From an uncultured Candidatus Saccharibacteria bacterium (lineage in GTDB: Bacteria > Patescibacteriota > Minisyncoccia > Phycocordibacterales > UBA5272): a DNA stretch of 64,000 nt. Made by a program: the position numbers and the translations under genes. Within the stretch, counting starts at the first letter, position 1. The number at the start of each line of letters is the position of its first letter. Under the pieces are notes generated by a model that was given only the letters and a program-made list of their open reading frames with translations, was not told the origin of the DNA and did no database searches. Positions 978 to 63,200 of this stretch are shown here, piece by piece. The DNA lies in NCBI GenBank assembly GCA_964635125.1, contig CAZWMQ010000002.1, positions 47,591 through 111,590 on the forward strand, in the 5' to 3' direction.

Positions 978-2246
978 TTATTTATAAATTTCTTTAATAT
1001 TTTCAAGCATATTTTTTATATTGAAATTATTTTCAATATTTTCTTTTGCCTTTTCTCCCAACTTTCTTCGTAAACTTTTATCTTTAATTAATTTTAATAA
1101 AGCCTCCTTCATCTCATAAATATTTTTATTTTCCACCAATAACCCAGTCTGATTATTTTTAATAATTTCTTTAACTCCACCAGTGTCTGTAACTACAGCT
1201 GGCAAACTTAGAAGCCCAGCTTCAAGTAAGACATACGGCAAACCTTCTTTAATTGATGGTAAAAAATAAATCTGAGCTTCCTTAAGATAATTCTGATGAT
1301 TTTCATCACAAATCAATAAATCTACATAATAATCTAGATCGAGATCTAAGATTAATTTTAATAAATTATTTCTCTCTTCTCCGCCAAATGAGACTATTGT
1401 ATATTTAAAATCCTGAAATTCATCTTTTAATAAGCTGATCGCTCTTAATCCATAATCAAAGCCTTTATTCTTAGTCAATTCTCCAATCGAAACAATTTTG
1501 ACAATTTCATTCTGCCCAGTATCTTGATTTGTATTTCGTATTCCTTCTTGAGCCATCTGACTTGTAGCTTGTAATCTGAAACTTGTTTCTTGAAGCTTAT
1601 AGCTTGAATCTTGTGTCTTAAGTCTTAAAGCTTTTGTCTTGTCTCCGTCTTGCATCTTAAGACTAGTTTCCTGTGACTTGCTACTTGAAGCTTGCAACTT
1701 GTCACTTGCAACTTGAACCCCATTATGTATCATTATTAATTTAGCTTTATTGACTAACCACCAATTCTTAACATCATTATAATCTTTCTCTGAAACACAG
1801 ATAACTTTATCTGATAATAATATCGTAAGCCAAGAAAAAAACTTTATTAAAATAATACTTAGATAATTTCTATCTTCTCGAAATGGCCAACCGTGAGCAG
1901 TAAAGATTATCTTTTTAACTCTAGCTAATCTTCCAACCATCGCTCCAATTATCCCCATTTTTGAACTATTTAAATGAATAATATCTGGCTTAATTTCTTT
2001 TAATAATTTATAAAGTCTAATCAATACTCTTAATTCTTTAAAAATATTTATGTCTCGCGTCAAATTAGATATATGATAAGTCTTAATATTTTCTCCTTTC
2101 AACTTTTGATATAATTCACCATAACCACCACAAGCTACTTCTATCTCAAAGTCACTTTTAACTTTAGCTAGATTTGTCGCTAAATCGTATACATATTTCT
2201 GAGCTCCGCCCCAATTACTTTTAGTGATGAGATATAAGATTTTCAT
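978..2246 (-). CDS. glycosyltransferase family 4 (GT-B) with a ~55-aa low-complexity inter-domain insert encoded by a heptanucleotide (CTTGNNN)n tract
   Basis: N-terminal 'MKILYLITKSNWGGAQKYVYDL' and C-terminal 'KEGLPYVLLEAGLLSLPAVVTDTGGVKEI' GT4 motifs. Insert 'KLQETSFRLQATS...' at nt ~1560-1730. Confidence 0.75.
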   Translation of the reverse strand: MKILYLITKSNWGGAQKYVYDLATNLAKVKSDFEIEVACGGYGELYQKLKGENIKTYHISNLTRDINIFKELRVLIRLYKLLKEIKPDIIHLNSSKMGIIGAMVGRLARVKKIIFTAHGWPFREDRNYLSIILIKFFSWLTILLSDKVICVSEKDYNDVKNWWLVNKAKLIMIHNGVQVASDKLQASSSKSQETSLKMQDGDKTKALRLKTQDSSYKLQETSFRLQATSQMAQEGIRNTNQDTGQNEIVKIVSIGELTKNKGFDYGLRAISLLKDEFQDFKYTIVSFGGEERNNLLKLILDLDLDYYVDLLICDENHQNYLKEAQIYFLPSIKEGLPYVLLEAGLLSLPAVVTDTGGVKEIIKNNQTGLLVENKNIYEMKEALLKLIKDKSLRRKLGEKAKENIENNFNIKNMLENIKEIYK

Positions 2247-19124: not shown

Positions 19125-19380
19125 AAATAATTATTTTTATTTCGCTAAGATTAAAATCTTAGCGACTAATTTCTAATAAACAAAAATCTCTCGTTAAACG
19201 AAAGATTTGAGGTAAACTTTACAAGACTTAAGACCTAAGCTTCAAGACTAAAGATAAATTCTTATGTCTTAAGTCTTACTTCTTTTGACTTGTTACGACC
19301 TCCGTGAGCTTATGTTTTGAGGGCTTTCGCCCACTCACTTCTTTGGTTTACTTATATAGTATAACATATCTCAGCTATTT
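19125..19380 (-). promoter_or_regulatory. rplJ leader with promoter (extended -10 'TATGTTATACT' at ~19368-19377 on the - strand) and structured leader
   Basis: The -10 matches the consensus seen in the 1-960 array. Leader hairpin 'GTGAGTGGGCGAAAGCCCTCAAAACATAAGCTCAC'. Long imperfect palindrome of AAGAC/GTCTT heptamers at 19200-19290. Confidence 0.5.
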
Positions 19381-19995: not shown

Positions 19996-21695
19996 AAACT
20001 CAAAAGAGATTGGAGAGAGAAGCGGAGTCGAACCACTACCTTCTCATAAATTATTATTTCGTAGTTACTTTTCAGATGGTAACTCGGATAGAATTAATAA
20101 ACTTATGTGATGTCCTAACCGTTAGACGAGCTCTCTTCAATCTTTTGAGTATAAAATCCTATAATGATGTGAGAAGTTTTACTTCTCAATTCGAAAAACT
20201 AAATAAAAATCAAAATAAATTTCAATCAATAACTAGTCTTCCGAATTGAAAAGTAAAATATATAAAAATAATTAATGATAAACATATTTCCTAATAGGAT
20301 ATGGGTATTAGTAATCCTCAGCTGAATGCATTACTGCACTTACACTTAGACCCTATCAACGTAATCATCTCTTACGACCCTTATAGAATACTTATCTTGA
20401 AGTTGGCTTCGTTCTTAGATGCTTTCAGAACTTATCCATTCCCGACTTGGCTACTGGGCGATCCAGCTAGCGCTAGAGCCCACACACCAGAGGTCAGTTC
20501 ATCTCGGTCCTCTCGTACTAGAGATAAATCTTCTCAATATTCCAAACGCCTGCAGTAGATAGGAGACCAACCTGTCTCACGACGGTTTGAACCCAGCTCG
20601 CGTATCTTTTTAAATGGCGAACAGCCATACCCTTGGGAGCTTCTTCACCCCCAGGATAAGATGAGCCGACATCGAGGTGCCGAACTCCACCGTCGCTATG
20701 GACGCTTAGGTGGAACTAGCCTGTTATCCCCGTGGTAGCTTCTATCCGTTAATCTTCAACTGCATCTAATGCAAATTGTCGGTTCACTATGTTCTACTTT
20801 CGTATCTGCTCGACATGCCCGTCTTACAGTTAAGCCAGTTTATGCCATTACACTATCGGCACGGTTTCCATTCGCGCCTAACTGACCTTAATAAACCCCT
20901 CCGTTACTCTTTAGGAGGGTACCGCCCCAGTAAAACTCCCCACCAGATACTGTCTCTCAACGTTTTTTCCGTTGAGGTTAGTGTTTGCCAAGTTACAGAT
21001 GGCTATTTCACTGTCGACTCCATGACAACCGAAATCGTCACTTCAAAGTCTCACCACTATACTACGCAATAAATTAACAAACACAATACCAAGCTAGAGT
21101 AAAGCTCACGGGGTCTTTTCGTCTAACTGCAGGTAGGCGGCATCTTCACCGCCACTGTATTTTCACCGAGCTACTCCCTGAGACAGTTCCCCAGTCATTA
21201 CACCATTCGTGCACGTCTGAACTTACCAGACAAGGAACTTCGCTCAACTGTTCCTTTAAAAGTTGGACTCTATCTTCATCTTTCTTTTACAAGTTAAGAT
21301 GCGTACCGCTGGTCTCTAGTTAGGTACATTGACGCATAATATATTTCTATAAGTGCGGGTAGCTTTATAAATGGTTAATGAATTTAAAACTATTTCCTAA
21401 AACAATCACGACACTAATCTTATCGTCCCAATCATTTCAGATACAAATAATATTTATATCTGAAACCTTAGGACGATTATAGTTATCGCCGACATTGACG
21501 GGGGCTTATATCAGTCAGCCACATGGCAAATTCAAAGTTAGTCCAAAATAAATTTTAAACGCTTTAAATCCACCATGTGACCACCGATATTTGACCTTCC
21601 CGCATTGGTCAGGTGTCACCCCATATACATACTCTTACGAGTTCGCATGGAGCTGTGTTTTAGATAAACAGTTGCCAGAGAAACTTTCGCTGCGG

Positions 21696-22087
21696 CCCAC
21701 ACTATAAAGCTCTCTTTAAATCTTCAAAATCTAAAGAGAGAAAATAGGGTGCCGGTAAATTGGTACTACTCAATAATGGATCATACTGAACGTTACTCGT
21801 ATGATTAGGCTTTTTTTCTTCCGAACCCCAACTTCAAAGATTTCTTTTACAAGAAATAAATCCATTGTTTGTCGAACAAAAATGCTATTACTTTCAACAT
21901 GACTGTGATTGCATATTGAAAAACATTTCTGACGGAGGTGTTTCGCTTTCCTATCAACACCTCGTAGCGTTTACTAAAACTCTGCAGTTCTAGCTGATCA
22001 TTTAAGACCATTTCTCATTATTAACTAATCTCATACCAATTCCCGAGCAATACTTTCAAGCTCATAAAAAGAGCTTTATAGTGTGGG
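21696..22087 (-). repeat. 392-bp insertion in 23S flanked by perfect 18/19-bp inverted repeats
   Basis: 'CCCACACTATAAAGCTCTC' at 21696-21714 and 'AGAGCTTTATAGTGTGGG' at 22070-22087. Confidence 0.55.
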
Positions 22088-22691
22088 CAAGCCTTATTGC
22101 TAACTTACGGCTGCTTTTTTGCCTAGTTCCTTGGGGAGAAATCACTCGTTCGCCTTGGTCTACTCGACCTGAATACCTGTGTCGGTTTGCGGTACGGACT
22201 TATATAAATTTAAAGTATTGCGGATTTTGTGAATAATGTATCCTAGATGACTAGCTACATTATTCACAAAGCAATATCTACTATTCAGTAGATGTAGAAA
22301 CTTTTCTCGGCACAGTGCTCCTTTATCTTCACCGGTATTGCTACAAGCTTCACTTCATAACTCTCGGTATTCAAGAACTGATTTACATGCTCTTGCCAAT
22401 CATTACAAAGACCACAATCTGATAAGTGGCATAAAATACAACCATGCGTCATTCCATCACATTTATACAAGGTAAAGGAATATTAACCTTTTGTCCATCG
22501 CCTACGGCTCATCGCCATCGGCTTAGGCCCGACTAACTCTTCGCTGACAACCATTGCGAAGAAAACCTTATTCTTTCGGCGTGGGGGGATCTCACCCCCA
22601 TTGCGGTTACTTGTGCCAACATTCGTACTTCTACACGCTCCACGGCGGGTCACCCCTTCCGCTTCATCGCAGAGTAGAACACTCGTCTACC

Positions 22692-22836
22692 GATTGTAAT
22701 TTTCACAAGAAAGAGAAATAACTATTTACTAATTAGGGCGAAGGTCTGACTAATAAATTTATTAAAAAATAAATTTATTAATTCTGCTTCCAAACTATTA
22801 GTCATAATACTTATCTCCCTTGTGAAAATTACAATC
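22692..22836 (-). repeat. 145-bp intervening sequence in 23S flanked by perfect 18-bp inverted repeats (helix-45-type IVS)
   Basis: 'GATTGTAATTTTCACAAG' at 22692-22709 and 'CTTGTGAAAATTACAATC' at 22819-22836. AT-rich interior with a duplicated 12-bp palindrome 'AATAAATTTATT'. Lies ~1.2 kb from the 23S 5' end. Confidence 0.6.
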
Positions 22837-22911
22837 CCTAAACTTCGGTGATATGTTTGAGTCCCGATCATCTGTGGCGCAGAATCTCTCGATGGGTGAG
22901 CTGTTACGCTA

Positions 22912-22946
<35 letters not shown>

Positions 22947-23520
22947 CATTGTCAATGAAATTCCACCTCCTCACTTACACTTAACATATACTTAGGGACC
23001 TTAATTTTAGATCTGGGCTGTTTCCCTTTTGACCACCGGAGCTTCGCCCCCGGAGTCTTACTGCTAGACTATTAAACTTTGGTATTCGGAGTTTGATAGG
23101 TATTGCCGTATTTCTACTAGTCAAGACCTTCCAGTGCTCTACCCCCAAAGCGAACATCTAACGCTATTCCTATAAATATTTCGACGAGAACCAGCTATTA
23201 CCAAGTTCGATTAGCTTTTCACTCCAACCCACAAGTCATCCAAAAGAGTCGCACGACTTACTAGTTCGGGCCTCCACTTATCTTTCGACAAGCTTCGCCC
23301 TGCTCATGGGTAGCTCACCTGGCTTCGGGTCTTTATTATTCAACTATTATTTCGCGCTATTCACACTCGCTTTCGCTTATGACTCCATCACTTTATACGA
23401 CTTAGTCAGCTGAATAATAAAACTCGTTGGCTCATTCTTCAATAGGCACGCAGTCGAGGTGCAAGCACCTCTCCTACTCTTTGTAAACATATGGTTTCAG
23501 TTCTATTTCACTCCCCTCCC

Positions 23521-23564
<44 letters not shown>

Positions 23565-24454
23565 ACTCAAGGAATATTTAGCCTTACCGGTTAGTTCCGG
23601 CAGATTCACCCGAGCTATTCGTGTCTCGAGTTACTCAGGATAAGAGATAAAAAAGAGTTAAATATTTCGAATACGGGACTATCACCCTCTTTGGTGCTAC
23701 TTTCCAATAGCTTATACTATAAATAACTTTTGTAACTTTCCTAGATAATTCTACATCTCTTCCCTACAACCAACTTAGTATTACTACTAAGAATTTGGGC
23801 TTCTCTGTTTTCGCTCGCCGCTACTTGCAGAATAACATTGTTTTCTTTTCCTGTGGGTACTGAAATGTTTTACTTCCCCACGTACGCTTCTAAAGATATG
23901 CTCCCTAGATTCCAAGACTTTACTCTTGGAGAGTTTCCTCATTCAGATATCTTCGGATCGAAGGTTAAAAGGCACCTCCCCGAAGCTTATCGCAGCCTAA
24001 TCACGTCTTTCATCGCTTCCTTGAACCAAGGCATCCACCTTATGCTCTTATTTCCTATTAGGAAATATATTTACCATCTTTATTTTTAACACCGCTGTCA
24101 AAAATAAATATTATTTTTATACAGTGTCTATATTATTCTCATAATATAGACTTACCTTTATTTTCACATCTATATACATTGCCTGAAAAGACCCCAAGAT
24201 ATTTGGGATATCAAATTGTGCAATGCTATAGGATTCTATTGACAAATAACTTGTCTAAATTTTTGAAAATAAAAACCGCTTTTTAAGCGGCGACTAAAAA
24301 CACTTTTTAGAAGCTGCTTAATTTTTCTGTTTTAAATTCAACATATTTAGGTCTTTCAATATTAACATAATGGAAATAAAAATGCAAACCAATCTGATAT
24401 CTAATTGCTAGTATCTAGTTTCTAGTTAAAATAACCTTTCTAGATAACTATAGG

Positions 24455-29073: not shown

Positions 29074-29490
29074 AAAATTTTTATAAAATTTATAATTTGT
29101 TTTGATCTTTTTATAGTGATCGAAGGATAAATATTTTCTTAAATGCTTTCGACAAGCAAAAATATTTAGTCCTCATGACTAAATCAATCGTCGTCGATTA
29201 ACTTATAAAAATTTCCGTAAAAAACTTTTACTTATTAATCTGCGATTGAATATATTACATTAATTAGGGTTAATTTAATTAATAATAAACTAATAATATT
29301 TTCTAATCTGTATCTATATTCTATTGCCAACGATCAATCTAGTTTTTTGGATACCTATAATAACTTATAAATGTATCTCAAATACCAGAGGACGCCCTAA
29401 CCAGAGACAGGTCGTCTAATAGATAATATAGCATAAAAATAAAGGAAATAAAATAATAGAAGTCTATATTGTGTATAAGTTAAGAAAGTT

Positions 29491-29530
29491 AAGACCGGGC
29501 GACCGCGAATGCGGTCGCCCGGTCTTATTC
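29491..29530 (-). terminator. rho-independent terminator (perfect 16-bp stem)
   Basis: 'AAGACCGGGCGACCGC-GAAT-GCGGTCGCCCGGTCTT'. Confidence 0.8.
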
Positions 29531-29547
29531 TTAAAACTTACAACTTA

Positions 29548-30372
29548 TTAGCTTATTAACTTGTAACGACTCCATCTTTTCTCCCCTATTTTCTCAATTT
29601 TTCCATCTTCTAAAAGATTATTTATCTCTCTTTGTAGAGTTTTTAAAGAACATCCGATAATTTTTTTAGAAATATCTTTAATAGAAACCTCTACTCCTCT
29701 ACTAAATACTCCTAAGATTTGCTCTTTACGATTTTGTCTATATCCTATATTTCTTTTATTTTTAGATTCACTTTTAGAATTGATTACTTTCTTAGTTGCC
29801 ACCTTAAAATTTGTCTTAATGTCTTTTACAAAACTAATGTCGTTTAGATTTTCTAAATGTCGTTTATCTGTTGAATCATTACTATGATATTGTTTATTAT
29901 TTTTACTATTCAAATTACGATTAGTTAAAACATCAAAAGATGTATTTGGGTTAGGAAAATTATTTTTAAAAGATTCTCTTTCTAAATTAAAAAAGAAATC
30001 TTCTTCAACTATACTTATATCTTGTTTATCAAATCTAAATTGCTCTTCTATTAAAACATGCTCTACAGATCTTAATGCTTGTATAACAATCTCGCAATTC
30101 ATAGTAGAAATTAAATTAGAGTTCTTAGCTAAATTTATATATAAAATTAATAATGAAACATAATCTAAAGAATCTTTATAAAGTGAAAATAAATCTTTTG
30201 AGTTATTATAGGCGATTAAATTAATCTCCTTCAAAAGCAAGTTGCCTGTACTTCTTAATTCTAGTTTAAGGTCCTCTGTGTCGTTAAGAAATTGAGATAT
30301 TAAATAAACGGCGGTAACTACCTTTTCTGTTTTCTTAGCTAATAATAAATTGAGCTCCGAATTATTTTTCAT
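29548..30372 (-). CDS. hypothetical protein with a C-terminal winged-helix DNA-binding-like domain
   Basis: C-terminal 'GYRQNRKEQILGVFSRGVEVSIKDISKKIIGCSLKTLQREINNLLEDGKIEKIGEKRWSRY'. Confidence 0.35.
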   Translation of the reverse strand: MKNNSELNLLLAKKTEKVVTAVYLISQFLNDTEDLKLELRSTGNLLLKEINLIAYNNSKDLFSLYKDSLDYVSLLILYINLAKNSNLISTMNCEIVIQALRSVEHVLIEEQFRFDKQDISIVEEDFFFNLERESFKNNFPNPNTSFDVLTNRNLNSKNNKQYHSNDSTDKRHLENLNDISFVKDIKTNFKVATKKVINSKSESKNKRNIGYRQNRKEQILGVFSRGVEVSIKDISKKIIGCSLKTLQREINNLLEDGKIEKIGEKRWSRYKLIS

Positions 30373-39151: not shown

Positions 39152-39898
39152 ATGCAAAATCTCAAAAGAGACTTCTTGAAAAGACTCAATTCTCTTAAAG
39201 AAGAGAAGGCTAATACTTATCTTTCTGTAAAAGGTCTTTCTAAAAATGATCTAAAGTTAATCTCTAAAGATGAGGAGAAGTTAATGAATTTGTGGAGGGA
39301 GACTCCTGAGGAATTATGTTCTCCCATAATTAAAAGAATGAGGATCAACAACAAAGAAAAATTAATTAAATATGCCAAAAATGAGAAGAAGTTGATGAAT
39401 TTGTTGAGGAATACTACTGAAGAACTCCGCCCTCCTATAATTAAAACCATTCTTAAATTGATCTCTAAAGATGAGGAAAAGTTGATGAATTTGTGGAGGA
39501 AGACTCCTAACGAACTCCGTCCTCCTATAATTAAGACCGTTCTTAAATTGATCTCTAAAGATGAGGAGAAGTTAATGAATTTGTGGAGGGAGACTCCTAA
39601 CGAACTCTGCCCTCCTATAATTAAAACCATTCTTAAATTGATCTCTAAAGATGAGGAGAAGTTGATGAATTTGTGGAGGAATACCTCTGACGAACTCTGC
39701 CCTCCTATAATTAAGGCCATTCTTAAATTGATCTCTAAAGATGAGGAGAAGTTAATGAATTTGTGGGGGGAGACTCCTAACGAACTCTGCCCTCCTATCA
39801 CTGAGAAGATTGTGGAATTATTAATGAGCTATGATGATAATAAATTCAAAATGGCCGTTGAAAAAATTGATGCGAATATTTTAAAAGCTATTGTCTAA
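39152..39898 (+). CDS. tandem-repeat protein with six ~30-aa repeats 'LKLISKDEEKLMNLWRETPNELCPPIIKTI' (90-bp DNA repeats); unknown function
   Basis: Near-identical 90-bp repeats at 39230-39790. Own promoter-like TTGACA at ~39083 and a terminator at 39913-39944. Confidence 0.6.
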   Translation: MQNLKRDFLKRLNSLKEEKANTYLSVKGLSKNDLKLISKDEEKLMNLWRETPEELCSPIIKRMRINNKEKLIKYAKNEKKLMNLLRNTTEELRPPIIKTILKLISKDEEKLMNLWRKTPNELRPPIIKTVLKLISKDEEKLMNLWRETPNELCPPIIKTILKLISKDEEKLMNLWRNTSDELCPPIIKAILKLISKDEEKLMNLWGETPNELCPPITEKIVELLMSYDDNKFKMAVEKIDANILKAIV

Positions 39899-44999: not shown

Positions 45000-45171
45000 T
45001 TTGCGAAAATGCTTAAAATGTGTTAAAATCATAAAAGCTTAAAATCTATCGAGATTGAGCTATTGATTTGTTTTTTATATAAAAGATCTTTGGTCTATAA
45101 TCTAAAATATTAGAATTATAAAATAAATTTAAACCTCTTGTAGCTTGAAACTTGCTACTTGAGTCTTGAAC

Positions 45172-45243
45172 GGCCTTATCGTCTAATGGTTAGGACAGCA
45201 GGTTTTCATCCTGCAAATCGGAGTTCGATTCTCCGTAAGGTCA
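45172..45243 (+). tRNA. tRNA-Glu (anticodon UUC)
   Basis: Cloverleaf: acceptor GGCCTTA/TAAGGTC, D-arm GTC-TAATGGTTAG-GAC, anticodon stem GCAGG/CCTGC with loop TTTTCAT, T-arm CGGAG-TTCGATT-CTCCG. CCA not encoded. Preceded by five CTTGNNN heptamers. Confidence 0.85.
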
Positions 45244-45252
45244 CCTTATATT

Positions 45253-47223: not shown

Positions 47224-47682
47224 TTAGACCAGAATTGATACTCCTTTTAATTTATTAAAATTATCTTTATTAAAATTAGACCCTCTTATATATTCAACTA
47301 CTTCTTTCACTCCAAATCTATAAGCTAAAATTACATAATCTGCTCCCTCTCTATATAACAATCTTGCTTGTTTCTCTTGATAAGCAATGCTTATAAATAT
47401 TTTATTTTTAACTTCTTCATTAATCTGTCTTTTATAAAAATGTAAAAGATTTAAATTGACTTCAAAATATGGAATGGTGGAAATAATAATCTTACTTCTT
47501 AAAATATGGTTATCTTCTAAGAAAGCAATGTTCTCAGCATCACCAACTATAGCTACCCCTCCATCTTGATTAGCTTTTTCAACTGCCTTATTATCAATAT
47601 CGATTATTAAAGTGTGGTAATTATTTTCTAATGATAATTTTAGAAAATCCGAGCTGACTTTATCGTAACCAAATATCACCAT
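47224..47682 (-). CDS. TrkA-N (RCK) NAD-binding regulatory domain protein
   Basis: 'MVIFGYDKVSSDFLKLS...VAIVGDAENIAFLE' Rossmann-like. Adjacent to the antiporter gene. Confidence 0.5.
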   Translation of the reverse strand: MVIFGYDKVSSDFLKLSLENNYHTLIIDIDNKAVEKANQDGGVAIVGDAENIAFLEDNHILRSKIIISTIPYFEVNLNLLHFYKRQINEEVKNKIFISIAYQEKQARLLYREGADYVILAYRFGVKEVVEYIRGSNFNKDNFNKLKGVSILV

Positions 47683-47685
47683 ATC

Positions 47686-48909
47686 TCACTCCACGCCCTC
47701 TTCATTGAAGAATTCTTTTTTAATTTTTCTAATTTCTAATAATTTAAGAAATGGCTTAATAAATTTATAAATCCTCTCACTATATAACAATAAATAAGAT
47801 GAAAAGCAAATTGAAACCAACATTATAATTAAGACTACTGCAAAAACTTGATTGTTAATAAAATTATAATTTTTAGCAATCACTAAAACCACTAATGAAA
47901 ATTCTGAGACTTGTCCCATCGATAACCCTGTATAGAAACTAGTCCTAGTTCGATAACCTAATAAATTCATAATCATAAAAAGAATAATTGGATGAAAAAT
48001 AATCACAAATATACTTAGAACTATAATTAAATTCCCTGAACCACTTAAACTGAAAAACTGGGCTTGGAACCCTAACAATATAAAAAATATTATAATGAAG
48101 AAATCTCGAATTGGTTTAAATCTTGAAGCAATATCTTTAGCGAAATTTAAATTCGACAAAATTATTCCAGCCAGTAAGGCCCCAATCTCAAGTGAAAATC
48201 CAAACACTTCAAATAGATAGGCATATAGAAATGAAAATGACAAAGAAAATAACAAAAGCAATTCTTGAGATCGTGAAAATAATTTCGACATCCTTGGTAA
48301 TATCCATTTACTTAATACTATATAAATTACGATTAAAACAATTATCTTAATTCCAAAACTTTTTAGTAGAGACAAGGTTCCGTCTCCACCAATAGCGGAA
48401 ATATGCTTAATTGATAAAATAATCAATAAGATTGCCGCAAAAAAGTCCTGAACTAATAAGACACCAAGCGACATCTTAGCATATAACCTCTCAATATCTC
48501 CTTTATCAGTGATGATTTTTAAAACAATAATAGTCGAAGATAAAGTTATGGCTGAGGACACTAACAAAGAAGTAGTCAAATTAAAATTAAATCCAAAATA
48601 TATAATAATAAATCCAATCACTGTAGTAATAATAATCTGAGACAATCCTAATAATAAACTCTTACCACCTTCTTCTTTAATCGTCTTTGGATTTAAATTT
48701 AAACCAATAATAAATAATAAAGCCACAATTCCAATCTTAGAAAATAATTCTAAGTTCGTAGTGTCAGTCATTAAATTAAGAAAATACGGCCCAATTAATA
48801 TTCCAACTAAGATATAACCCAATACTAATGGTAATCTAAAATAATTCACAATTAAAGCGATAATACAAGTAAAAGTTAGTAAAAAAGCTAAATTAGCAAA
48901 AATATCCAT
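47686..48909 (-). CDS. CPA2-family monovalent cation:proton antiporter (KefB-like)
   Basis: About 12 TM helices with 'LGYILVGILIGPYFLNL' and 'EIGALLAGIILS'. Confidence 0.6.
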   Translation of the reverse strand: MDIFANLAFLLTFTCIIALIVNYFRLPLVLGYILVGILIGPYFLNLMTDTTNLELFSKIGIVALLFIIGLNLNPKTIKEEGGKSLLLGLSQIIITTVIGFIIIYFGFNFNLTTSLLVSSAITLSSTIIVLKIITDKGDIERLYAKMSLGVLLVQDFFAAILLIILSIKHISAIGGDGTLSLLKSFGIKIIVLIVIYIVLSKWILPRMSKLFSRSQELLLLFSLSFSFLYAYLFEVFGFSLEIGALLAGIILSNLNFAKDIASRFKPIRDFFIIIFFILLGFQAQFFSLSGSGNLIIVLSIFVIIFHPIILFMIMNLLGYRTRTSFYTGLSMGQVSEFSLVVLVIAKNYNFINNQVFAVVLIIMLVSICFSSYLLLYSERIYKFIKPFLKLLEIRKIKKEFFNEEGVE

Positions 48910-58323: not shown

Positions 58324-58593
58324 ATTTTTATTTTTAAATTTTTATGAAGTTTTTAAAACGAAATAATTCGCTAATAAATTAATAATAAAGAAAGAACAAC
58401 ACAACACTTAATTTATTAAAGATAAATAAGCATTTACCAACTTATACATAGACAATCTACATATTATTTTAAGTATATAACCATCAAAATCTAATGTCAA
58501 TATAGAAATAGTTTTACTTTTACTAAAAATATGTTAAAATAAATCTAAATTCTTAAGTCTTGGTTCTTGCAACTTGAAACTTGACTCTTGAAT

Positions 58594-58660
58594 GCAGTGG
58601 TAGCTCAGCTCAAGTAAGAGATTCTGCGAGCACCGCCCGTAATGGACGGAAAGTGGAAAT
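58594..58660 (+). pseudogene. partial duplicate of the tRNA-Asp 5' half with a divergent continuation
   Basis: 'GCAGTGGTAGCTCAGCT' is identical to the tRNA-Asp 5' end and is followed by non-tRNA sequence. Preceded by five CTTGNNN heptamers. Confidence 0.5.
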
Positions 58661-58697
58661 CAAAAACTGAATTGATATATTTCTGTAATAAAAATAT

Positions 58698-58771
58698 GCA
58701 GTGGTAGCTCAGCTGGTTAGAGCACCGCCCTGTCACGGCGGGGGTCGTGGGTTCGAGTCCCATTCACTGCG
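58698..58771 (+). tRNA. tRNA-Asp (anticodon GUC)
   Basis: Acceptor GCAGTGG/TCACTGC, D-arm GCTC-AGCTGGTTAG-AGCA, anticodon stem CCGCC/GGCGG with loop CTGTCAC, T-arm GTGGG-TTCGAGT-CCCAT. Confidence 0.85.
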
Positions 58772-58940
58772 CAAAAAATAATGAGAAACTCTAAAAGAGT
58801 TTAGAATATATTTTTGGCTAAGGAGCGAGGCTCGAACTAAATTGTCTGCAAAGCCAGTTTTTAATTTTGAAGAAATGAAAAACTGAGACAATTTATGCAG
58901 GGTCGAGAAATGATGAGTGAAGCGAATATATTTGGTGACC

Positions 58941-58963
58941 GAGTCCCATTCACTGCGCAAAAA
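58941..58963 (+). repeat. 23-bp direct repeat of the tRNA-Asp 3' end (58755-58777), att-like
   Basis: 'GAGTCCCATTCACTGCGCAAAAA' occurs twice, 186 bp apart. Confidence 0.6.
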
Positions 58964-59034
58964 TAAAAAGTTAATAATTAATTTGTATATATAAACTAAT
59001 TATGATATTATAAATCTACTATTTTTATAGTATA

Positions 59035-59105
59035 TAGCGGAATGGAGTAAAGGTAACTCGCAAGGCTCATAACCTTGAAACCCAGGTTCGAATCCTAGTT
59101 CCGCA
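59035..59105 (+). tRNA. tRNA-Met (CAU), initiator-like (A11:U24, unpaired 1.72)
   Basis: D-arm GAGT-AAAGGTA-ACTC, anticodon stem CAAGG/CCTTG with loop CTCATAA, T-loop TTCGAAT. One C.A mismatch in the T-stem. Confidence 0.6.
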
Positions 59106-59143
59106 ACAATTTTGATTTTCTTTACTCCATTCTATTTTAGCGG

Positions 59144-59214
59144 AATGAATTAAAGTTAAACTCAGCAAGCTCTAACCTTGAAACCCAGGTTCGAATCCTA
59201 GTTCCGCAACAAAT
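59144..59214 (+). pseudogene. degenerate copy of the initiator-like tRNA; D-stem disrupted, anticodon loop CTCTAAC (would read as CUA)
   Basis: The acceptor, T-arm and 3' half are identical to 59035-59105. The D-arm and anticodon stem are mutated. Confidence 0.45.
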
Positions 59215-60201: not shown

Positions 60202-63200
60202 TTATTGAGTAGGAGTTGAGGTAGCTTCTGATGTGGGTGTTGATTCTGGGGTTATTTGTGGTTCAGTTGTTGGAGTTGAGTCAGGTGTTGAAGTTGATTC
60301 TGATGTAGTTTCAGTAGAGTTCGAAAAATTGTCATCTATAGTATTTGAGGTAGTTGAGCTATTGTCTGAATTAGTCTCAGTAGTTGAAGATCCATTACTA
60401 ATATCAGGAGTAGTCGTTCCGTTATCTGTATTTGTTTCTAAAGTGGTTGAGCCATTATTATCTGAGCTTGAAGAAAACTCGCTTCCTCCACTAGTATTGG
60501 TATTGCTATTCGAAGAAGAATTTTGAGTATTTAATAATTCTTGTAATTGATTAGCATTAGTACAAACTTGCTGCCCATTTTCATTAATCAAACAAAGTTT
60601 CTTCGTCTCAATAAGATCAGAATATAATTTTACAAAATATCCTCTGATAGCAGAAATTCTTAATACTACCAGGTTAGTTAGTAATTCATACCCGGATGAT
60701 AATCTATTATGAATTGTTTGTAAAACATCTATATTATTTTCATTGGTTATAAGATCTATGGTGTTAGTAGCATCACTATTAATTGTTAAAAGAGAATCGC
60801 TACCATTTAAAGTATTGAAAGTTGATTTTAAAGAAGCTACAATATATGGAGTGAATCCTCCATAATTGACTCCTTTCAATCCTCCTGGGTCAGTAGAAAC
60901 CAAATCCGAAAATAATTGTTCTACTTCTTGGGCTATAAATCCAGTATGCTTTGAGCTTGAGCTAGACTCTATTTTCCAATTATAACTAACAGGGTTTAAA
61001 ATTAAAAGTTTATCTAAGACCGATAAGGAGCTAGTAGCTATATTATTATTTAAAACAAACTGAACTTCACTGTTATTTAAAATTGCCGAAGTATTAACTA
61101 AATCTATATTCTTCTTTAAATTAATATCGGAAGAACAAGTCAAAGAAGTTGTATTTGGACTAATCGTACAATTCCCACTACTATTAGTAAATCTAGCGAC
61201 TACACCTGAAATACTACTATTACCAACATCTAAAGTGTATTGTGGAGTAGATGTAGCAATACCTATATAATCACTACTCAAATCCCCATAAATAGTATTC
61301 CCAATATTCAATTGATTATTAGAGGTAGAAGCAGTAACATCTACATTATAACCAATTAAGATATTGTCATGACCGGTAGTGATAGAGTCTCCAGCTTGAT
61401 AACCAATAGCTGTGTTATTGTATCCAGTGCTATTATTATATAAAGCACTCAATCCAATACCAGAGTTACTTCCTCCAGTAGTATTATTTCTAAGAGTTCC
61501 TCGACCAACTGCCACATTAGATTGTCCAGAAGTAGTATTTTGAAGAGCATAAGATCCAAGTCCAACATTGTCACTAGAACTTGTGGCGCTATTAATAGCT
61601 TGATAACCGATAGCCACATTATCTAATCCAGTTAAGTTATTCTGTAAAGCATAAGTACCTAAAGCCAGGTTTCCACTTCCACTAGTGTTAGCAGCTAAAG
61701 AGTTAACTCCAAGTCCAACATTATCATTTCCATCAATATTAAATCCTAAAGCATCATTACCTATAGCTATATTATTAGTACCTATAGTATTAAAATCTAG
61801 AGCATATGGTCCGATGGCGACATTATTTTGAGAACTAGTAGAGTGATTAAGAGCTAGGTGACCAATGGCTATGTTGTAGCTTCCAGTAGTCATACTCTGC
61901 ATAGCATCAAATCCTATGGCTGTATTTCTATTACCACTAGTTATATTTTGTAAAGATTCAGATCCTACTCCTGTATTATATTGTCCGGAGGCTGATGAAT
62001 TACCTGAGTTACCAAAGAAATAGCTGTTTAAGGTTGTGGAGGCAAAGACGAGAGAAGTTCCATTTAAAGTAACTTGACTTGTAGTACTAACTATCACTCC
62101 TGTTTCATTTAACCAAGAAGCTGTGGTGCCATTAGTATATAAGAATTTACCAGCATTGCCAGATTGAGATGGAAGACCTCCACCTGAAACTGTCGCCCAA
62201 GCTACCACTCCACTTCCATTAGTTTGTAAGACTTGTCCGTTAGTTCCATCAGTATTAGGTAAAGTGTAGGCTCCGATCTTTAAGGTTCCAGTGAAGCTAC
62301 CGGTTCCGGCAACAGTTAGGGTTTCATTTAGAGTAGAAGTTCCAATCCCAATCTTTCCACCAGAAATAGCTGTGGTGGTTGGATTACCAGAAGTAGTTGA
62401 ATATAATCCTGTTCCAAATAATATTCCACCAATGTTAAGAGAGTTAGTGGTTGCATTAGGTAAAGAAACATTGGTTCCAATAATAATATTGTTATTACCT
62501 ATGTTATTAGAAGTAAAAGACATACCAGCTTGATAACCAATCAGATTAGAGTATTGAGCATTATCTGCTCCATATCCAGCAGATGTCCCAATGAAGTTTG
62601 AATTATCTGCATCAGTTGCACTATATCCAGCATTATAACCAAGGAAGTTAGCATAAGAAGTTCCATTTGCACTATATCCAGCAGAATCACCAATGAAGTT
62701 AGATTCATCTGAACTGCTAGCATTATGTCCAGCATCTGTCCCGATAAAGTTAGAATATGGCGAACTAGTAGCATTCTGCCCAGCACTTGTCCCAATGAAG
62801 TTAGAATCATTCGAATTGCCAGCATTCATACCAGTATTTAAACCAAAGAAGTTAGAGTCTCCGGAATTAGCTGAATAATTACCGGCTTGATGACCGAAGA
62901 AGTTAGAATAACTTGAATCATGAGCATTTTGTCCAGACCAACCAATATAGTTAGAGATAGAGTTATAAGCTTGATAACCAGCATAATAACCAATACCTAC
63001 TGCTCCAGCTGAATTATAAGCACCATATCCAGCACTTAGACCAAAGAAGTTAGTGGCTCAAGAACCATTAGCTCCATAACCAGCATTTTCTCCTAAGAAA
63101 TTAGATTCGTGAGTACCAGTAGCATTTTGTCCAGCTCCATCTCCTAAGAATACTGATTGATAAGCATCTGATCCGTTTCCAGCATTATTACCTAAGAATA

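What the first reader, a model, noticed from the sequence alone, without database searches (positions are those of the whole stretch)
45131..45171. The same CTTGNNN heptamer pentads sit immediately 5' of tRNA genes and in the rplJ leader
'CTTGTAG CTTGAAA CTTGCTA CTTGAGT CTTGAAC' abuts the tRNA-Glu 5' end. 'TCTTGGT TCTTGCA ACTTGAA ACTTGAC TCTTGAA' abuts the tRNA-Asp fragment at 58556-58593. An inverted pair of AAGAC/GTCTT heptamer runs forms a long palindrome in the rplJ leader (19200-19290). A CTTA-variant overlaps the stop of 29548-30372. A dispersed phased-heptamer element placed at the start of stable-RNA and ribosomal-protein transcripts suggests a protein-binding array, for example a transcription factor or processing signal, or a precursor-RNA structure. 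It may be a shared regulatory code for growth-rate-controlled genes.
Basis: seen in the sequence. Interest (0 to 1): 0.6.

Follow-up and report, generated by a model that had tools for sequence, protein, structure and literature searches.

The report
Clade-specific CTTG heptad repeat arrays
The phased CTTGNNN runs are real and far beyond chance, but they are a lineage-specific family of short dispersed heptad repeats sitting in tolerant transcribed spacers (two tRNA leaders, the L10 leader, a glycosyltransferase linker) of one small group of Parcubacteria, not a general regulatory code for growth-rate-controlled genes.

Summary
Observation confirmed. The window (30.6% GC, Parcubacteria-like) has three perfect (CTTGNNN)5-6 arrays where none is expected by chance. 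Two end exactly at position -1 of tRNA-Glu and of a degenerate tRNA-Asp 5' half. An inverted pair forms a hairpin in the rplJ leader.

The two tRNA-Met genes have no array.

Two related metagenomic organisms carry the family at the same three loci (tRNA-Glu leader, rplJ leader, glycosyltransferase linker). More distant relatives and 54 further tRNA-Glu loci do not. Between orthologous arrays the CTT(G/A) core is 81-100% identical, while the three free bases sit near random (33-50% against 31%). Unit number in the glycosyltransferase varies (about 24, about 11, 0).

The arrays start about 12 nt after -10 boxes, so they are probably transcribed leader. In the L10 leader the hairpin is a 57-nt insertion relative to Rfam's model.

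Best reading (0.45): a dispersed heptanucleotide repeat family, like cyanobacterial, Beggiatoa and Geobacter heptamer repeats, turning over by 7-nt slippage anchored on the core. A phased protein-binding array on RNA or DNA remains a serious rival. It is a new variant of a known, still unexplained kind. Interest is moderate.

The parts
45137..45171 (+). Five perfect CTTGNNN units filling the tRNA-Glu 5' leader and ending at position -1 of the tRNA.
   Evidence: The array is identical in an independent assembly of the same organism.
45119..45124 (+). -10-like TAAAAT, 12 nt upstream of the array (inferred promoter). A stronger TG-extended TTGCGA-17-TAAAAT lies at 45001-45029.
   Evidence: Inference only; there is no transcript data.
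45172..45245 (+). tRNA-Glu(UUC). It is inverted relative to the neighbouring TraG-like gene when compared with most relatives.
58532..58540 (+). Extended -10 box TGTTAAAAT (TTTACT-16-TAAAAT), 11 nt upstream of the array. The same box precedes tRNA-Asp in the relative L148.
58552..58593 (+). Six heptads (CTTAAGT followed by five CTTGNNN), ending at position -1 of the tRNA-Asp 5' pseudo-half.
58594..58650 (+). Degenerate 5' half of tRNA-Asp (pseudo-fragment). The intact tRNA-Asp is at 58698-58772.
19261..19292 (-). 5' arm of the rplJ-leader hairpin: five xAAGxxx units (the reverse-orientation heptads).
   Evidence: (I14)
19219..19253 (-). 3' arm of the rplJ-leader hairpin: CTTTAGT CTTGAAG CTTAGGT CTTAAGT CTTGTAA. 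It ends 10 nt before the attenuator terminator.
19172..19364 (-). L10 (rplJ) leader: an L10-binding stem, then the heptad hairpin as a 57-nt insertion relative to the Rfam model, then the terminator at 19208-19184.
   Evidence: RF00557, 35.6 bits, E 5.7e-4, below the gathering score of 44
1547..1718 (+). About 24 heptads (6 perfect CTTG units at 1677-1718; a partly decayed stretch at 1547-1670). They lie antisense to glycosyltransferase ORF 978-2246 and encode a roughly 56-aa low-complexity insertion in its inter-domain linker.
29530..29550 (+). Weak member: CTTAAAA CTTACAA CTTATTA beside terminator palindrome 29490-29527, overlapping the stop codon of ORF 29548-30372.

Best explanation
The runs belong to one lineage-specific family of short dispersed repeats. 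Each array has about five 7-nt units in which only CTT(G/A) is kept and the other three bases are free. An array occurs either alone or as an inverted pair that folds into a hairpin.

The arrays occupy places that tolerate extra sequence:
- the transcribed leader between the -10 box and the 5' end of tRNA-Glu and tRNA-Asp;
- the variable linker of the L10 leader, just before its attenuator terminator;
- the inter-domain linker of a glycosyltransferase, where the array is antisense and in frame.

Inferred mechanism. Arrays arise and turn over by 7-nt replication slippage or unit duplication anchored on the 4-nt core. Units with an intact core keep being copied, and units with a damaged core drop out. 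Arrays expand until they meet sequence under selection: the transcription start region on one side and tRNA position +1 on the other. That would explain the exact abutment on the tRNA.

At the RNA level the arrays would be carried as leader that RNase P removes, or as a self-contained hairpin that does not disturb the flanking L10-leader structures. Any regulatory use would be secondary. They are not a general code for growth-rate-controlled genes.
For: Shown:
- The arrays are far beyond chance and specific to CTTG.
- The same family is present at three orthologous loci in Rel-A (L180, L185, L187) and at one of the two loci examined in Rel-B (present in L181, absent in L186).
- It is absent in the outgroups L184, L182/183 and L148, which share gene order, and in 54 other tRNA-Glu loci.
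- Unit number varies between species in the glycosyltransferase: about 24 units in the window and about 11 in Rel-A. Rel-B has no array, and all other homologues are about 364 aa against 422 aa.
- Adjacent identical units (CTTGAAT x2, CTTGCTA x2) and 14-, 21- and 28-nt sub-periods are signs of unit duplication.
- Between orthologous arrays the core is 81-100% identical and NNN 33-50% (random 31%). The flanking rplJ leader is 76% identical, so units turn over faster than their surroundings.
- In the L10 leader the hairpin is a discrete 57-nt insertion in the model's unstructured linker. Forcing its 3' arm open does not disturb the terminator.
- The arrays start 11-12 nt after -10 boxes of the organism's TGTTAWAWT type.

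Precedent:
- Heptanucleotide repeats are the commonest long simple repeats in many bacteria and are attributed to slippage (Mrazek 2007, as summarised in PMC4679880).
- TAACTGA repeats sit just upstream of genes, including ribosomal-protein genes, and in reverse orientation at permissive ends of ORFs.
- Geobacter metallireducens has multicopy elements of four or five tandem heptanucleotides, both between and within genes.
Against: - Plain slippage copies whole units, so it does not obviously predict a perfect 4-nt core with near-random spacers. That pattern is what a binding site read once per 7 nt would give.
- Leader arrays are strikingly uniform at 4-5 units (35 nt) across three loci and three organisms, whereas the coding array is free to vary.
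- All examined orthologous loci in Rel-A have kept an array despite about 70-83% protein identity.
- One core recurs at every locus rather than a different motif per locus.
- Single arrays next to tRNAs are both in the sense orientation.
- No length polymorphism was seen among three samples of the same population.
Confidence: 0.45

Rival explanations
1. Leader-RNA element. The transcribed (CUUGNNN)5 array is a phased landing pad for an oligomeric or cooperatively binding RNA-binding protein with a 7-nt footprint. Candidates are a cold-shock/OB-fold type or a ring protein read like HutP or TRAP sites. When paired with an upstream (NNNCAAG)n arm, it forms a hairpin that masks or presents those sites. 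Through this it would control processing, stability or attenuation of pre-tRNA-Glu, pre-tRNA-Asp and rplJL transcripts.
For: - The arrays begin at about +5 to +7 of the inferred transcripts and run to the RNase P site.
- In Rel-A and Rel-B the hairpin starts at the inferred 5' end of the transcript.
- In both rplJ leaders the 3' arm ends 10 nt before the attenuator terminator.
- Single arrays are in the sense orientation.
- The core is conserved and the spacer free.
- Leader arrays have 4-5 units.
- The hairpins are stable (-22 to -28 kcal/mol, z -2.9 to -6.4). The core's fourth base co-varies with its partner: UA, CG, UG and GC all occur.
- More distant relatives have other hairpins at the same place in the tRNA-Glu leader.
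Against: - The longest and best-conserved array is antisense in a coding region, where the mRNA carries CAAG and not CUUG.
- In the hairpins the CUUG cores are base-paired, and therefore hidden from a single-strand binder.
- No alternative antiterminator pairing appears when the arm is held open.
- There is no Rfam family and no candidate protein.
- Only two independent compensatory pairs were found among four sequences.
Confidence: 0.25
2. Duplex-DNA operator arrays. A clade-specific small DNA-binding protein, for instance a ribbon-helix-helix dimer as with the omega repressor of pSM19035 or MetJ, binds one CTTG per 7 bp. It polymerises over about five units in direct or inverted orientation and acts as a repressor or roadblock just downstream of the promoter.
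For: - The architecture matches: contiguous 7-bp units, a short conserved core, and either orientation.
- It would explain conservation of the core independently of strand, including the antisense glycosyltransferase arrays in two species.
- The tRNA arrays lie at about +5 to +41.
- A second heptad family with a CTAG core occurs in untranscribed-looking positions here and in another Parcubacteria contig. Each array has 4-5 units and is followed within 5-9 nt by TTGCAT.
Against: - The rplJ arrays lie about 85-160 nt downstream of the promoter, inside an RNA leader.
- There is no reason for an operator to end exactly at tRNA position +1.
- The arms of the window rplJ hairpin and the Rel-A tRNA-Glu hairpin are complementary in the spacer bases too. 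A DNA reader of cores would not require that.
- No ribbon-helix-helix-like small ORF is evident in the window (by inspection only).
- The promoter-like sites next to the CTAG arrays do not pass the consensus scan.
Confidence: 0.15
3. One reading: a shared cis-regulatory code, such as an UP-element, FIS site or growth-rate-control element, common to stable-RNA and ribosomal-protein promoters.
For: Three of the four array loci in the window precede tRNA or ribosomal-protein genes.
Against: - The arrays lie downstream of the -10 box and are not A/T-rich upstream elements.
- They are absent from both tRNA-Met genes and from the region upstream of 23S.
- They are present in a glycosyltransferase gene.
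- They are absent in relatives with the same genes.
Confidence: 0.05
4. Scars or fragments of one mobile or integrative element that targets tRNA genes, with the inverted pair as terminal repeats of a miniature element and single arrays as solo ends.
For: - The tRNA cluster is rearranged and littered with tRNA fragments: an Asp 5' half, an Asp 3' end and a second degenerate Met.
- tRNA-Glu is inverted relative to the relatives.
- The window rplJ 3' arm resembles the Rel-B tRNA-Glu 3' arm (11/15 spacer bases, plus a shared AGCTTAGGTCTT) more than it resembles its own orthologue (5/15).
- A serine recombinase pair lies next to tRNA-Glu in Rel-A.
Against: - No transposase or integrase lies next to any array in the window.
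- No target-site duplications were seen.
- The TraG-like gene beside tRNA-Glu is a conserved syntenic core gene, not an island.
- Arrays sit at the same three loci in two species, which indicates persistence rather than recent movement.
- A 24-unit in-frame coding array does not fit a miniature element.
Confidence: 0.05

Closest known systems
Dispersed tandem heptanucleotide repeats of bacteria. These comprise long simple-sequence repeats of 5-11 nt (Mrazek et al. 2007), cyanobacterial STRR and heptamer repeats, TAACTGA repeats of Beggiatoaceae, cyanobacteria and Bacteroidetes (PMC4679880), and multicopy elements of four or five heptanucleotides in Geobacter metallireducens (PMC2700814).
   Same: - 7-nt period with a few to about six copies per site. 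Geobacter has sites of exactly five.
- Many sites per genome and a sporadic, clade-restricted distribution.
- Sites lie close to the 5' ends of genes, including ribosomal-protein genes.
- Occasional copies lie inside ORFs at permissive positions in the orientation that avoids stop codons.
- Some occur as pairs on opposite strands.
- The binding factor and function are still unknown.
   Different: - Here only 4 of the 7 positions are kept; the known families repeat the whole heptamer.
- The arrays abut tRNA 5' ends and sit inside an L10 leader.
- Inverted pairs make leader hairpins.
- The host is a small-genome Parcubacteria, whereas repeats of this size class were reported mainly from large free-living genomes.
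Heptad operators of the omega repressor (plasmid pSM19035) and MetJ met-boxes: ribbon-helix-helix proteins polymerising on contiguous 7-8-bp units (from my own knowledge, not tested here).
   Same: Contiguous 7-bp units, a short conserved core, and units in direct or inverted orientation. Several units are needed, and the sites lie next to promoters.
   Different: - The core sequence differs (WATCACW for omega).
- No cognate protein was identified.
- The arrays lie downstream of the -10 box, inside an RNA leader and inside a gene.
- They end exactly at a tRNA.
Phased RNA sites of HutP (UAG-N4 repeated, 7-nt period) and TRAP ((G/U)AG repeated with 2-3-nt spacers), which wrap around ring proteins in leader attenuators (from my own knowledge).
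   Same: A short core with a free spacer, repeated in phase in a 5' leader next to a terminator. HutP's period is also 7.
   Different: - The core is 4 nt, CUUG.
- No hutP or mtrB-like gene is known here.
- In half of the cases the cores are paired in a hairpin.
- Forcing the arm open reveals no antiterminator.
L10 leader (Rfam RF00557), the autoregulatory attenuator of rplJL.
   Same: The window leader has the 5' stem, the GGAGG segment and the terminator in the model's order. The Rel-A leader aligns at 76% identity.
   Different: The score is below Rfam's gathering threshold (35.6 against 44). The heptad hairpin is an extra 57 nt that the model treats as an insertion.
REP/BIME and MITE-like palindromic intergenic repeats.
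   Same: Imperfect palindromes of about 70 nt lie in transcribed intergenic sequence. Copies at different loci resemble each other.
   Different: - The arms are internally periodic.
- Solo direct arrays and a long coding array exist.
- Copy number is low in the DNA available.
- No target duplications or RAYT/transposase genes were seen.

Membership tests
Dispersed tandem heptanucleotide repeats (LSSR / STRR / TAACTGA type) | Head-to-tail copies of a 7-nt unit, longer than chance allows | tested here: met
   Arrays of 5-6 perfect units, and about 24 in the glycosyltransferase. Expected 0.00.
Dispersed tandem heptanucleotide repeats (LSSR / STRR / TAACTGA type) | The same unit recurs at several dispersed loci of one genome | tested here: met
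   Four loci plus one weak locus in 64 kb. Three loci in 27 kb of Rel-A.
Dispersed tandem heptanucleotide repeats (LSSR / STRR / TAACTGA type) | The whole heptamer is (nearly) identical from copy to copy | tested here: not met
   Positions 1-3 are fixed, position 4 is G or A, and positions 5-7 carry 0.24-0.35 bits (70 units).
Dispersed tandem heptanucleotide repeats (LSSR / STRR / TAACTGA type) | Copy number changes by slippage between strains or species | tested here: met
   Between species, the glycosyltransferase linker has about 24, about 11 or 0 units, with adjacent identical units. Within the population, three samples are identical.
Dispersed tandem heptanucleotide repeats (LSSR / STRR / TAACTGA type) | Sporadic, clade-restricted distribution | tested here: met
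   Present in the window organism, Rel-A and Rel-B. Absent in L184, L182/183, L148 and 54 tRNA-Glu loci.
Omega / MetJ-type operator arrays | Contiguous 7-8-bp units in direct and inverted orientation | tested here: met
   Direct arrays at the tRNAs; inverted 5+5 arrays in the rplJ leader.
Omega / MetJ-type operator arrays | The array overlaps or adjoins the promoter it controls | tested here: inconclusive
   The tRNA arrays start 11-12 nt after -10 boxes. The rplJ arrays lie about 85-160 nt downstream, and the glycosyltransferase array is intragenic.
Omega / MetJ-type operator arrays | A cognate ribbon-helix-helix protein binds the units | not testable with these tools
   No obvious candidate among 25 small ORFs of the window (inspection only). 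Binding needs an experiment.
HutP / TRAP-type phased RNA sites | A short core repeated in phase in a leader, competing with a terminator or antiterminator | tested here: not met
   A phased core lies next to the rplJ terminator. However, holding the arm unpaired leaves the terminator intact in both species.
HutP / TRAP-type phased RNA sites | A ring-shaped RNA-binding protein encoded in the genome | not tested
   Only 64 kb of the genome was available.
L10 leader (RF00557) | The covariance model matches at the curated threshold, upstream of rplJ | tested here: inconclusive
   35.6 bits against a gathering score of 44, E 5.7e-4. The match covers the full model directly upstream of rplJ, with a 57-nt insertion.
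UP-element / FIS-type growth-rate control of stable-RNA promoters | A/T-rich or factor-binding sequence upstream of the -35 box of rRNA, tRNA and ribosomal-protein promoters generally | tested here: not met
   The arrays lie downstream of the -10 box. They are absent at both tRNA-Met genes and upstream of 23S.
REP / MITE-like palindromic elements | Defined ends with target-site duplication and an associated transposase or RAYT | tested here: not met
   No duplications flank the rplJ insertion in either species. No transposase lies near the arrays in the window. Genome-wide copy number could not be tested.

The most novel reading that the evidence does not exclude
Pentads of phased heptads with a 4-nt core (CTTG in this clade, CTAG in another Parcubacteria lineage and once here) are recognition arrays for lineage-specific oligomerising nucleic-acid-binding regulators. 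In this clade they would tie the output of tRNA-Glu, tRNA-Asp and the rplJL operon to one factor acting on the first about 40 nt of the transcript or on the L10 attenuator. That would be a previously undescribed regulon architecture in Patescibacteria. It would also give a handle on the long-unexplained heptamer repeats of cyanobacteria, Beggiatoa and Geobacter.
Probability: 0.3. Interest if true: 0.7.

Novelty: new variant of a known kind. Interest (0 to 1): 0.4.

Why it matters
Dispersed heptamer repeats near gene starts have been reported for decades in cyanobacteria, Beggiatoaceae, Bacteroidetes and Geobacter, and no reader protein or mechanism is agreed.

This case adds three things:
- It occurs in a tiny Patescibacteria genome.
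- It shows a clean split between a fixed 4-nt core and free spacers.
- It offers orthologous arrays in three organisms that can be compared unit by unit.

If the core is under selection, the small proteome makes the reader protein findable. If it is not, this is a tidy example of a repeat family that expands until it meets functional boundaries. It also shows how such repeats insert into tRNA leaders, a riboregulatory leader and a protein linker without harm.

Tried and rejected
1. Scan of 185,579 genomes for (CTTGNNN)5. It returned at least 120 hits in many phyla, almost all perfect heptamer microsatellites. None of the first 60 loci had a tRNA beside the array. This shows that heptamer repeats are widespread.

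2. Viral-contig scans for the array-tRNA junction and for the tRNA-Glu 25-mer found nothing.

3. Promoter inside the array. The units resemble -35 boxes (TTGACT, TTGAAA), but no -10 box lies at the right distance. The consensus scan places promoters upstream. Rejected.

4. Direct arrays folding on themselves as GNNNC helices with UU/UU loops. This was marginal for the window tRNA-Glu array (p 0.03 to 0.002, depending on flank). It was not significant for the tRNA-Asp array (p 0.13) or for the Rel-A arrays (p 0.27 and 1.0). Not general.

5. The heptad hairpin as the antiterminator of the L10 attenuator. With the 3' arm forced unpaired, the terminator still forms in both species. Rejected.

6. 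Genomic island at tRNA-Glu. The TraG-like gene is a conserved syntenic gene of this group. Rejected.

7. Rfam search of the tRNA-Glu leader found no family.

8. I first took L148 for the closest relative. Protein identities show it is an outgroup, which makes the distribution clade-like rather than patchy.

9. Exact-protein look-ups of two small neighbouring ORFs found nothing.

10. Promoter-like sites next to the CTAG arrays do not pass the consensus scan.
Full report
**What is in the sequence**

The window is AT-rich (30.6% GC). It carries a 23S gene about 850 nt longer than the bacterial model, a 5S gene and four tRNA genes. Its proteins are closest to Parcubacteria / Paceibacterota / Nomurabacteria MAG proteins.

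The cited run at 45137-45171 reads CTTGTAG CTTGAAA CTTGCTA CTTGAGT CTTGAAC, and tRNA-Glu starts at the next base.

A second run, CTTAAGT CTTGGTT CTTGCAA CTTGAAA CTTGACT CTTGAAT (58552-58593), ends at the base before a degenerate copy of the 5' half of tRNA-Asp. The intact tRNA-Asp lies 104 nt downstream.

On the minus strand, the rplJ leader has five xAAGxxx units, a 7-nt spacer and five CTTRxxx units. Together they fold into a hairpin of -22.7 kcal/mol, z -3.6.

All of this is far beyond chance:
- The three-unit CTTG pattern occurs 10 times against 0.00 in shuffles.
- Runs of at least four CTT[GA] units occur 5 times against 0.00 in simulations.
- Among all 256 tetramers, only CTTG shows a marked excess of pairs at distance 7 relative to its background (16 against 1).

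The largest array, about 24 units at 1547-1718, lies on the antisense strand of a family-4 glycosyltransferase gene (978-2246). Read in the gene's frame it gives a roughly 56-residue low-complexity insertion (…QASSSKSQETSLKMQ…) between the two Rossmann-like domains.

The two tRNA-Met genes have no array, and there is no CTTG array upstream of the 23S gene. The CTTA variant at 29530-29550 has only three units, next to a terminator palindrome.

**Position relative to transcription (inferred)**

A TG-extended -10 box of the form TGTTAWAWT occurs 22 times in the window against 11.7 expected. Most copies lie shortly upstream of gene starts.

One copy (58532-58540, with TTTACT 16 nt upstream) lies 11 nt before the tRNA-Asp array. 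The same box precedes tRNA-Asp in relative L148, where an unrelated 45-nt AT-rich leader follows it. A TAAAAT hexamer lies 12 nt before the tRNA-Glu array.

So both arrays probably begin a few nucleotides into the transcript and make up the whole 5' leader down to the RNase P site. No transcript data exist, so this is inference.

**Relatives**

A metagenome scan with the first 25 nt of this tRNA-Glu is unbiased with respect to upstream sequence. It returned 54 loci, and none has CTTG heptads before the tRNA.

I then fetched the contexts of homologues of the neighbouring TraG-like gene, the glycosyltransferase and L10. Ranked by identity of TraG / NhaP / AspRS to the window, the relatives are:

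| Locus | TraG | NhaP | AspRS |
|---|---|---|---|
| L179 | 76 | 80 | 84 |
| Rel-A (L180) | 69 | 76 | 83 |
| Rel-B (L181) | 66 | 65 | not comparable (48-residue alignment only) |
| L184 | 67 | 62 | 80 |
| L182 | 65 | 44 | 79 |
| L148 | 63 | 58 | 78 |

Rel-A and Rel-B both carry the family:
- Their tRNA-Glu leaders consist of a TGTGTTAAAAT promoter followed at once by a roughly 70-nt hairpin. Its 5' arm is (xAAGxxx)4-5 and its 3' arm is (CTTRxxx)4-5, ending 1-11 nt before the tRNA. Folding gives -26.1 kcal/mol (z -6.4) and -22.2 kcal/mol (z -2.9).
- Rel-A's rplJ leader has a hairpin at the same place as the window's. Its 3' arm is five perfect units, CTTGGAA CTTGTAG CTTGACT CTTGAAA CTTGAAT (-28.4 kcal/mol, z -4.0).
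- Rel-A's glycosyltransferase has a shorter insertion at the same linker. Its antisense DNA reads CTTGTGA CTTGAAT CTTGAAT CTTGCGA CTTGCTA CTTGCTA CTTGCAC, next to the same CCCCATTATG as in the window.

Rel-B's linker has about 13 extra residues but no heptads. All other homologues are about 364 aa.

The outgroups L184, L182/183 and L148 have the same genes in the same order but other leader sequences, often other hairpins. About 400 kb of other Parcubacteria loci contain no CTTR array. The family is therefore a feature of one small clade.

**How the arrays evolve**

Over 70 units, positions 1-3 are fixed, position 4 is G (46) or A (18), and positions 5-7 carry 0.24-0.35 bits. Because the units were collected by their core, orthologous comparisons are the fairer test:

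| Comparison | Core identical | Spacer (NNN) identical |
|---|---|---|
| rplJ 3' arm, window vs Rel-A | 17/20 | 5/15 |
| Glycosyltransferase array, window vs Rel-A | 24/24 | 9/18 |
| Random expectation for spacers | n/a | 0.31 |

The rplJ leader as a whole is 76% identical. The spacers therefore change faster than their surroundings while the core stays.

Adjacent identical units in Rel-A and the 14-, 21- and 28-nt sub-periods in the window indicate unit duplication.

The window's rplJ 3' arm resembles the Rel-B tRNA-Glu 3' arm (11/15 spacer bases, shared AGCTTAGGTCTT). It resembles its own orthologue less. This hints at exchange between loci, but the significance is modest after multiple testing.

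**The L10 leader**

Rfam's L10_leader model matches 19172-19364 on the minus strand across its full length (35.6 bits, E 5.7e-4, below the gathering score of 44). It treats the heptad hairpin as a 57-nt insertion in the unstructured linker between the 5' stem and the terminator. The terminator at 19208-19184 is also found by the consensus scan.

In both species the hairpin is closed by GGAGGU/ACCUC(U) and is self-contained. Forcing the 3' arm to stay unpaired leaves the terminator intact, so it is not an antiterminator.

An alignment of the four hairpins gives a consensus of three YAAG:CUUR helices separated by small internal loops. The variable end of the core co-varies, with UA, CG, UG and GC all present.

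**Interpretation**

The closest described things are the dispersed tandem heptanucleotide repeats of other bacteria:
- The long simple repeats of Mrazek et al. have heptamers as the commonest class, and slippage is the proposed cause (summarised in PMC4679880).
- The TAACTGA repeats of Beggiatoaceae, cyanobacteria and Bacteroidetes lie just upstream of genes, including ribosomal-protein genes, and in reverse orientation at permissive ends of ORFs.
- Nostoc heptamer repeats influence recF and recO expression through an unidentified partner.
- G. metallireducens has multicopy elements of four or five tandem heptanucleotides, some in pairs on opposite strands, between and within genes.

None of these has an established mechanism.

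My best reading (0.45) is that the CTTG arrays are such a repeat family. They turn over by 7-nt slippage anchored on the core, are tolerated only in permissive transcribed spacers, and expand until they meet the promoter/start region and tRNA position +1. This accounts for several observations:
- the exact abutment on the tRNAs;
- the variable coding array;
- the clade restriction;
- the discrete insertion in the L10 leader.

It does not easily account for the perfect core with random spacers, the constant 4-5 units in leaders, or retention at all three loci examined in Rel-A. Those points favour a phased binding array. Such an array could act on the leader RNA (0.25) or on duplex DNA in the manner of omega or MetJ operators (0.15).

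The growth-rate-code reading (0.05) and a mobile-element scar (0.05) fit poorly.

**Limits**
- Only 64 kb of this genome and 11-27 kb of each close relative could be examined.
- Promoters, transcription starts and processing sites are inferred from sequence.
- Empty rplJ-leader sites in outgroups were not seen.

Noticed in passing
window 24398-24432; L130 5835-5869, 5976-6010, 7209-7236: A second heptad family with a CTAG core. In the window, five units (CTGATAT CTAATTG CTAGTAT CTAGTTT CTAGTTA on the + strand) lie between the M23 peptidase gene and the 23S gene. An unrelated Parcubacteria contig has three CTAG arrays of 4-5 units, two of them flanking the region upstream of an ftsZ-like start. 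In both organisms an array is followed within 5-9 nt by TTGCAT, but the consensus promoter scan does not call these sites.
   Followed up: partly
window about 20005-20135 (- strand); L187 about 440-555: Between the 23S and 5S genes lies a tRNA-like sequence: an acceptor/D-arm start and a T-arm/acceptor end, separated by about 45-50 extra nt where the anticodon arm should be. It is present in the window and in Rel-A. ARAGORN and Rfam do not call it.
   Followed up: no
window 20289-24061 (- strand): The 23S rRNA match spans 3773 nt for a 2925-position model, so it carries about 850 nt of insertion(s) or intron(s), as is common in this radiation.
   Followed up: no
window 58594-59210: The tRNA cluster is littered with partial copies: a tRNA-Asp 5' half with a 17-nt D-loop replacement (58594-58650), a tRNA-Asp 3' end (about 58940-58962) and a degenerate second tRNA-Met (about 59131-59210). 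Gene order and orientation differ from relatives L148 and L182.
   Followed up: partly
window 45172-45252; L179 3' end: tRNA-Glu converges on the TraG-like gene here and in the closest relative L179. In Rel-A, Rel-B, L182-184 and L148 it follows that gene on the same strand. This implies a small inversion of promoter, leader and tRNA in the common ancestor of the window organism and L179.
   Followed up: partly
window 47224-48909 (- strand), codon 408: An in-frame TGA splits the Na+/H+ exchanger-TrkA_N gene into ORFs of 407 and 152 aa. The closest relatives have Trp at that position. TGA is an ordinary stop in 12 of 44 large ORFs, so this looks like a nonsense mutation or an error rather than recoding. 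The public gene call reads through it.
   Followed up: partly
L174 and L128, 7-35 nt upstream of tRNA-Glu: Another Parcubacteria lineage has three to four heptads of the form TTGANTT / TTTGATT just upstream of its tRNA-Glu. Three other loci with the same tRNA sequence lack them.
   Followed up: no
window 39377-39798 and 62572-62845: A 90-bp tandem repeat (4.7 copies, 90% matches) lies inside ORF 39152-39898. Tandem repeats of 51 and 102 bp lie inside the 875-aa protein that carries a Peptidase_S74 chaperone domain.
   Followed up: no
window, 22 sites (for example 5727, 11278, 14560, 25781, 30701, 36912, 48935, 49041, 53237, 58532, 60167): The extended -10 motif TGTTAWAWT occurs at about twice the chance level (22 against 11.7). 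It usually lies about 5-40 nt upstream of start codons or tRNA 5' ends. This suggests -35-independent promoters and very short leaders in this organism.
   Followed up: partly
L180 6117-7424: In Rel-A a serine recombinase, split into Resolvase and Recombinase/Zn-ribbon parts, lies immediately downstream of tRNA-Glu. This points to an integrated element there.
   Followed up: no
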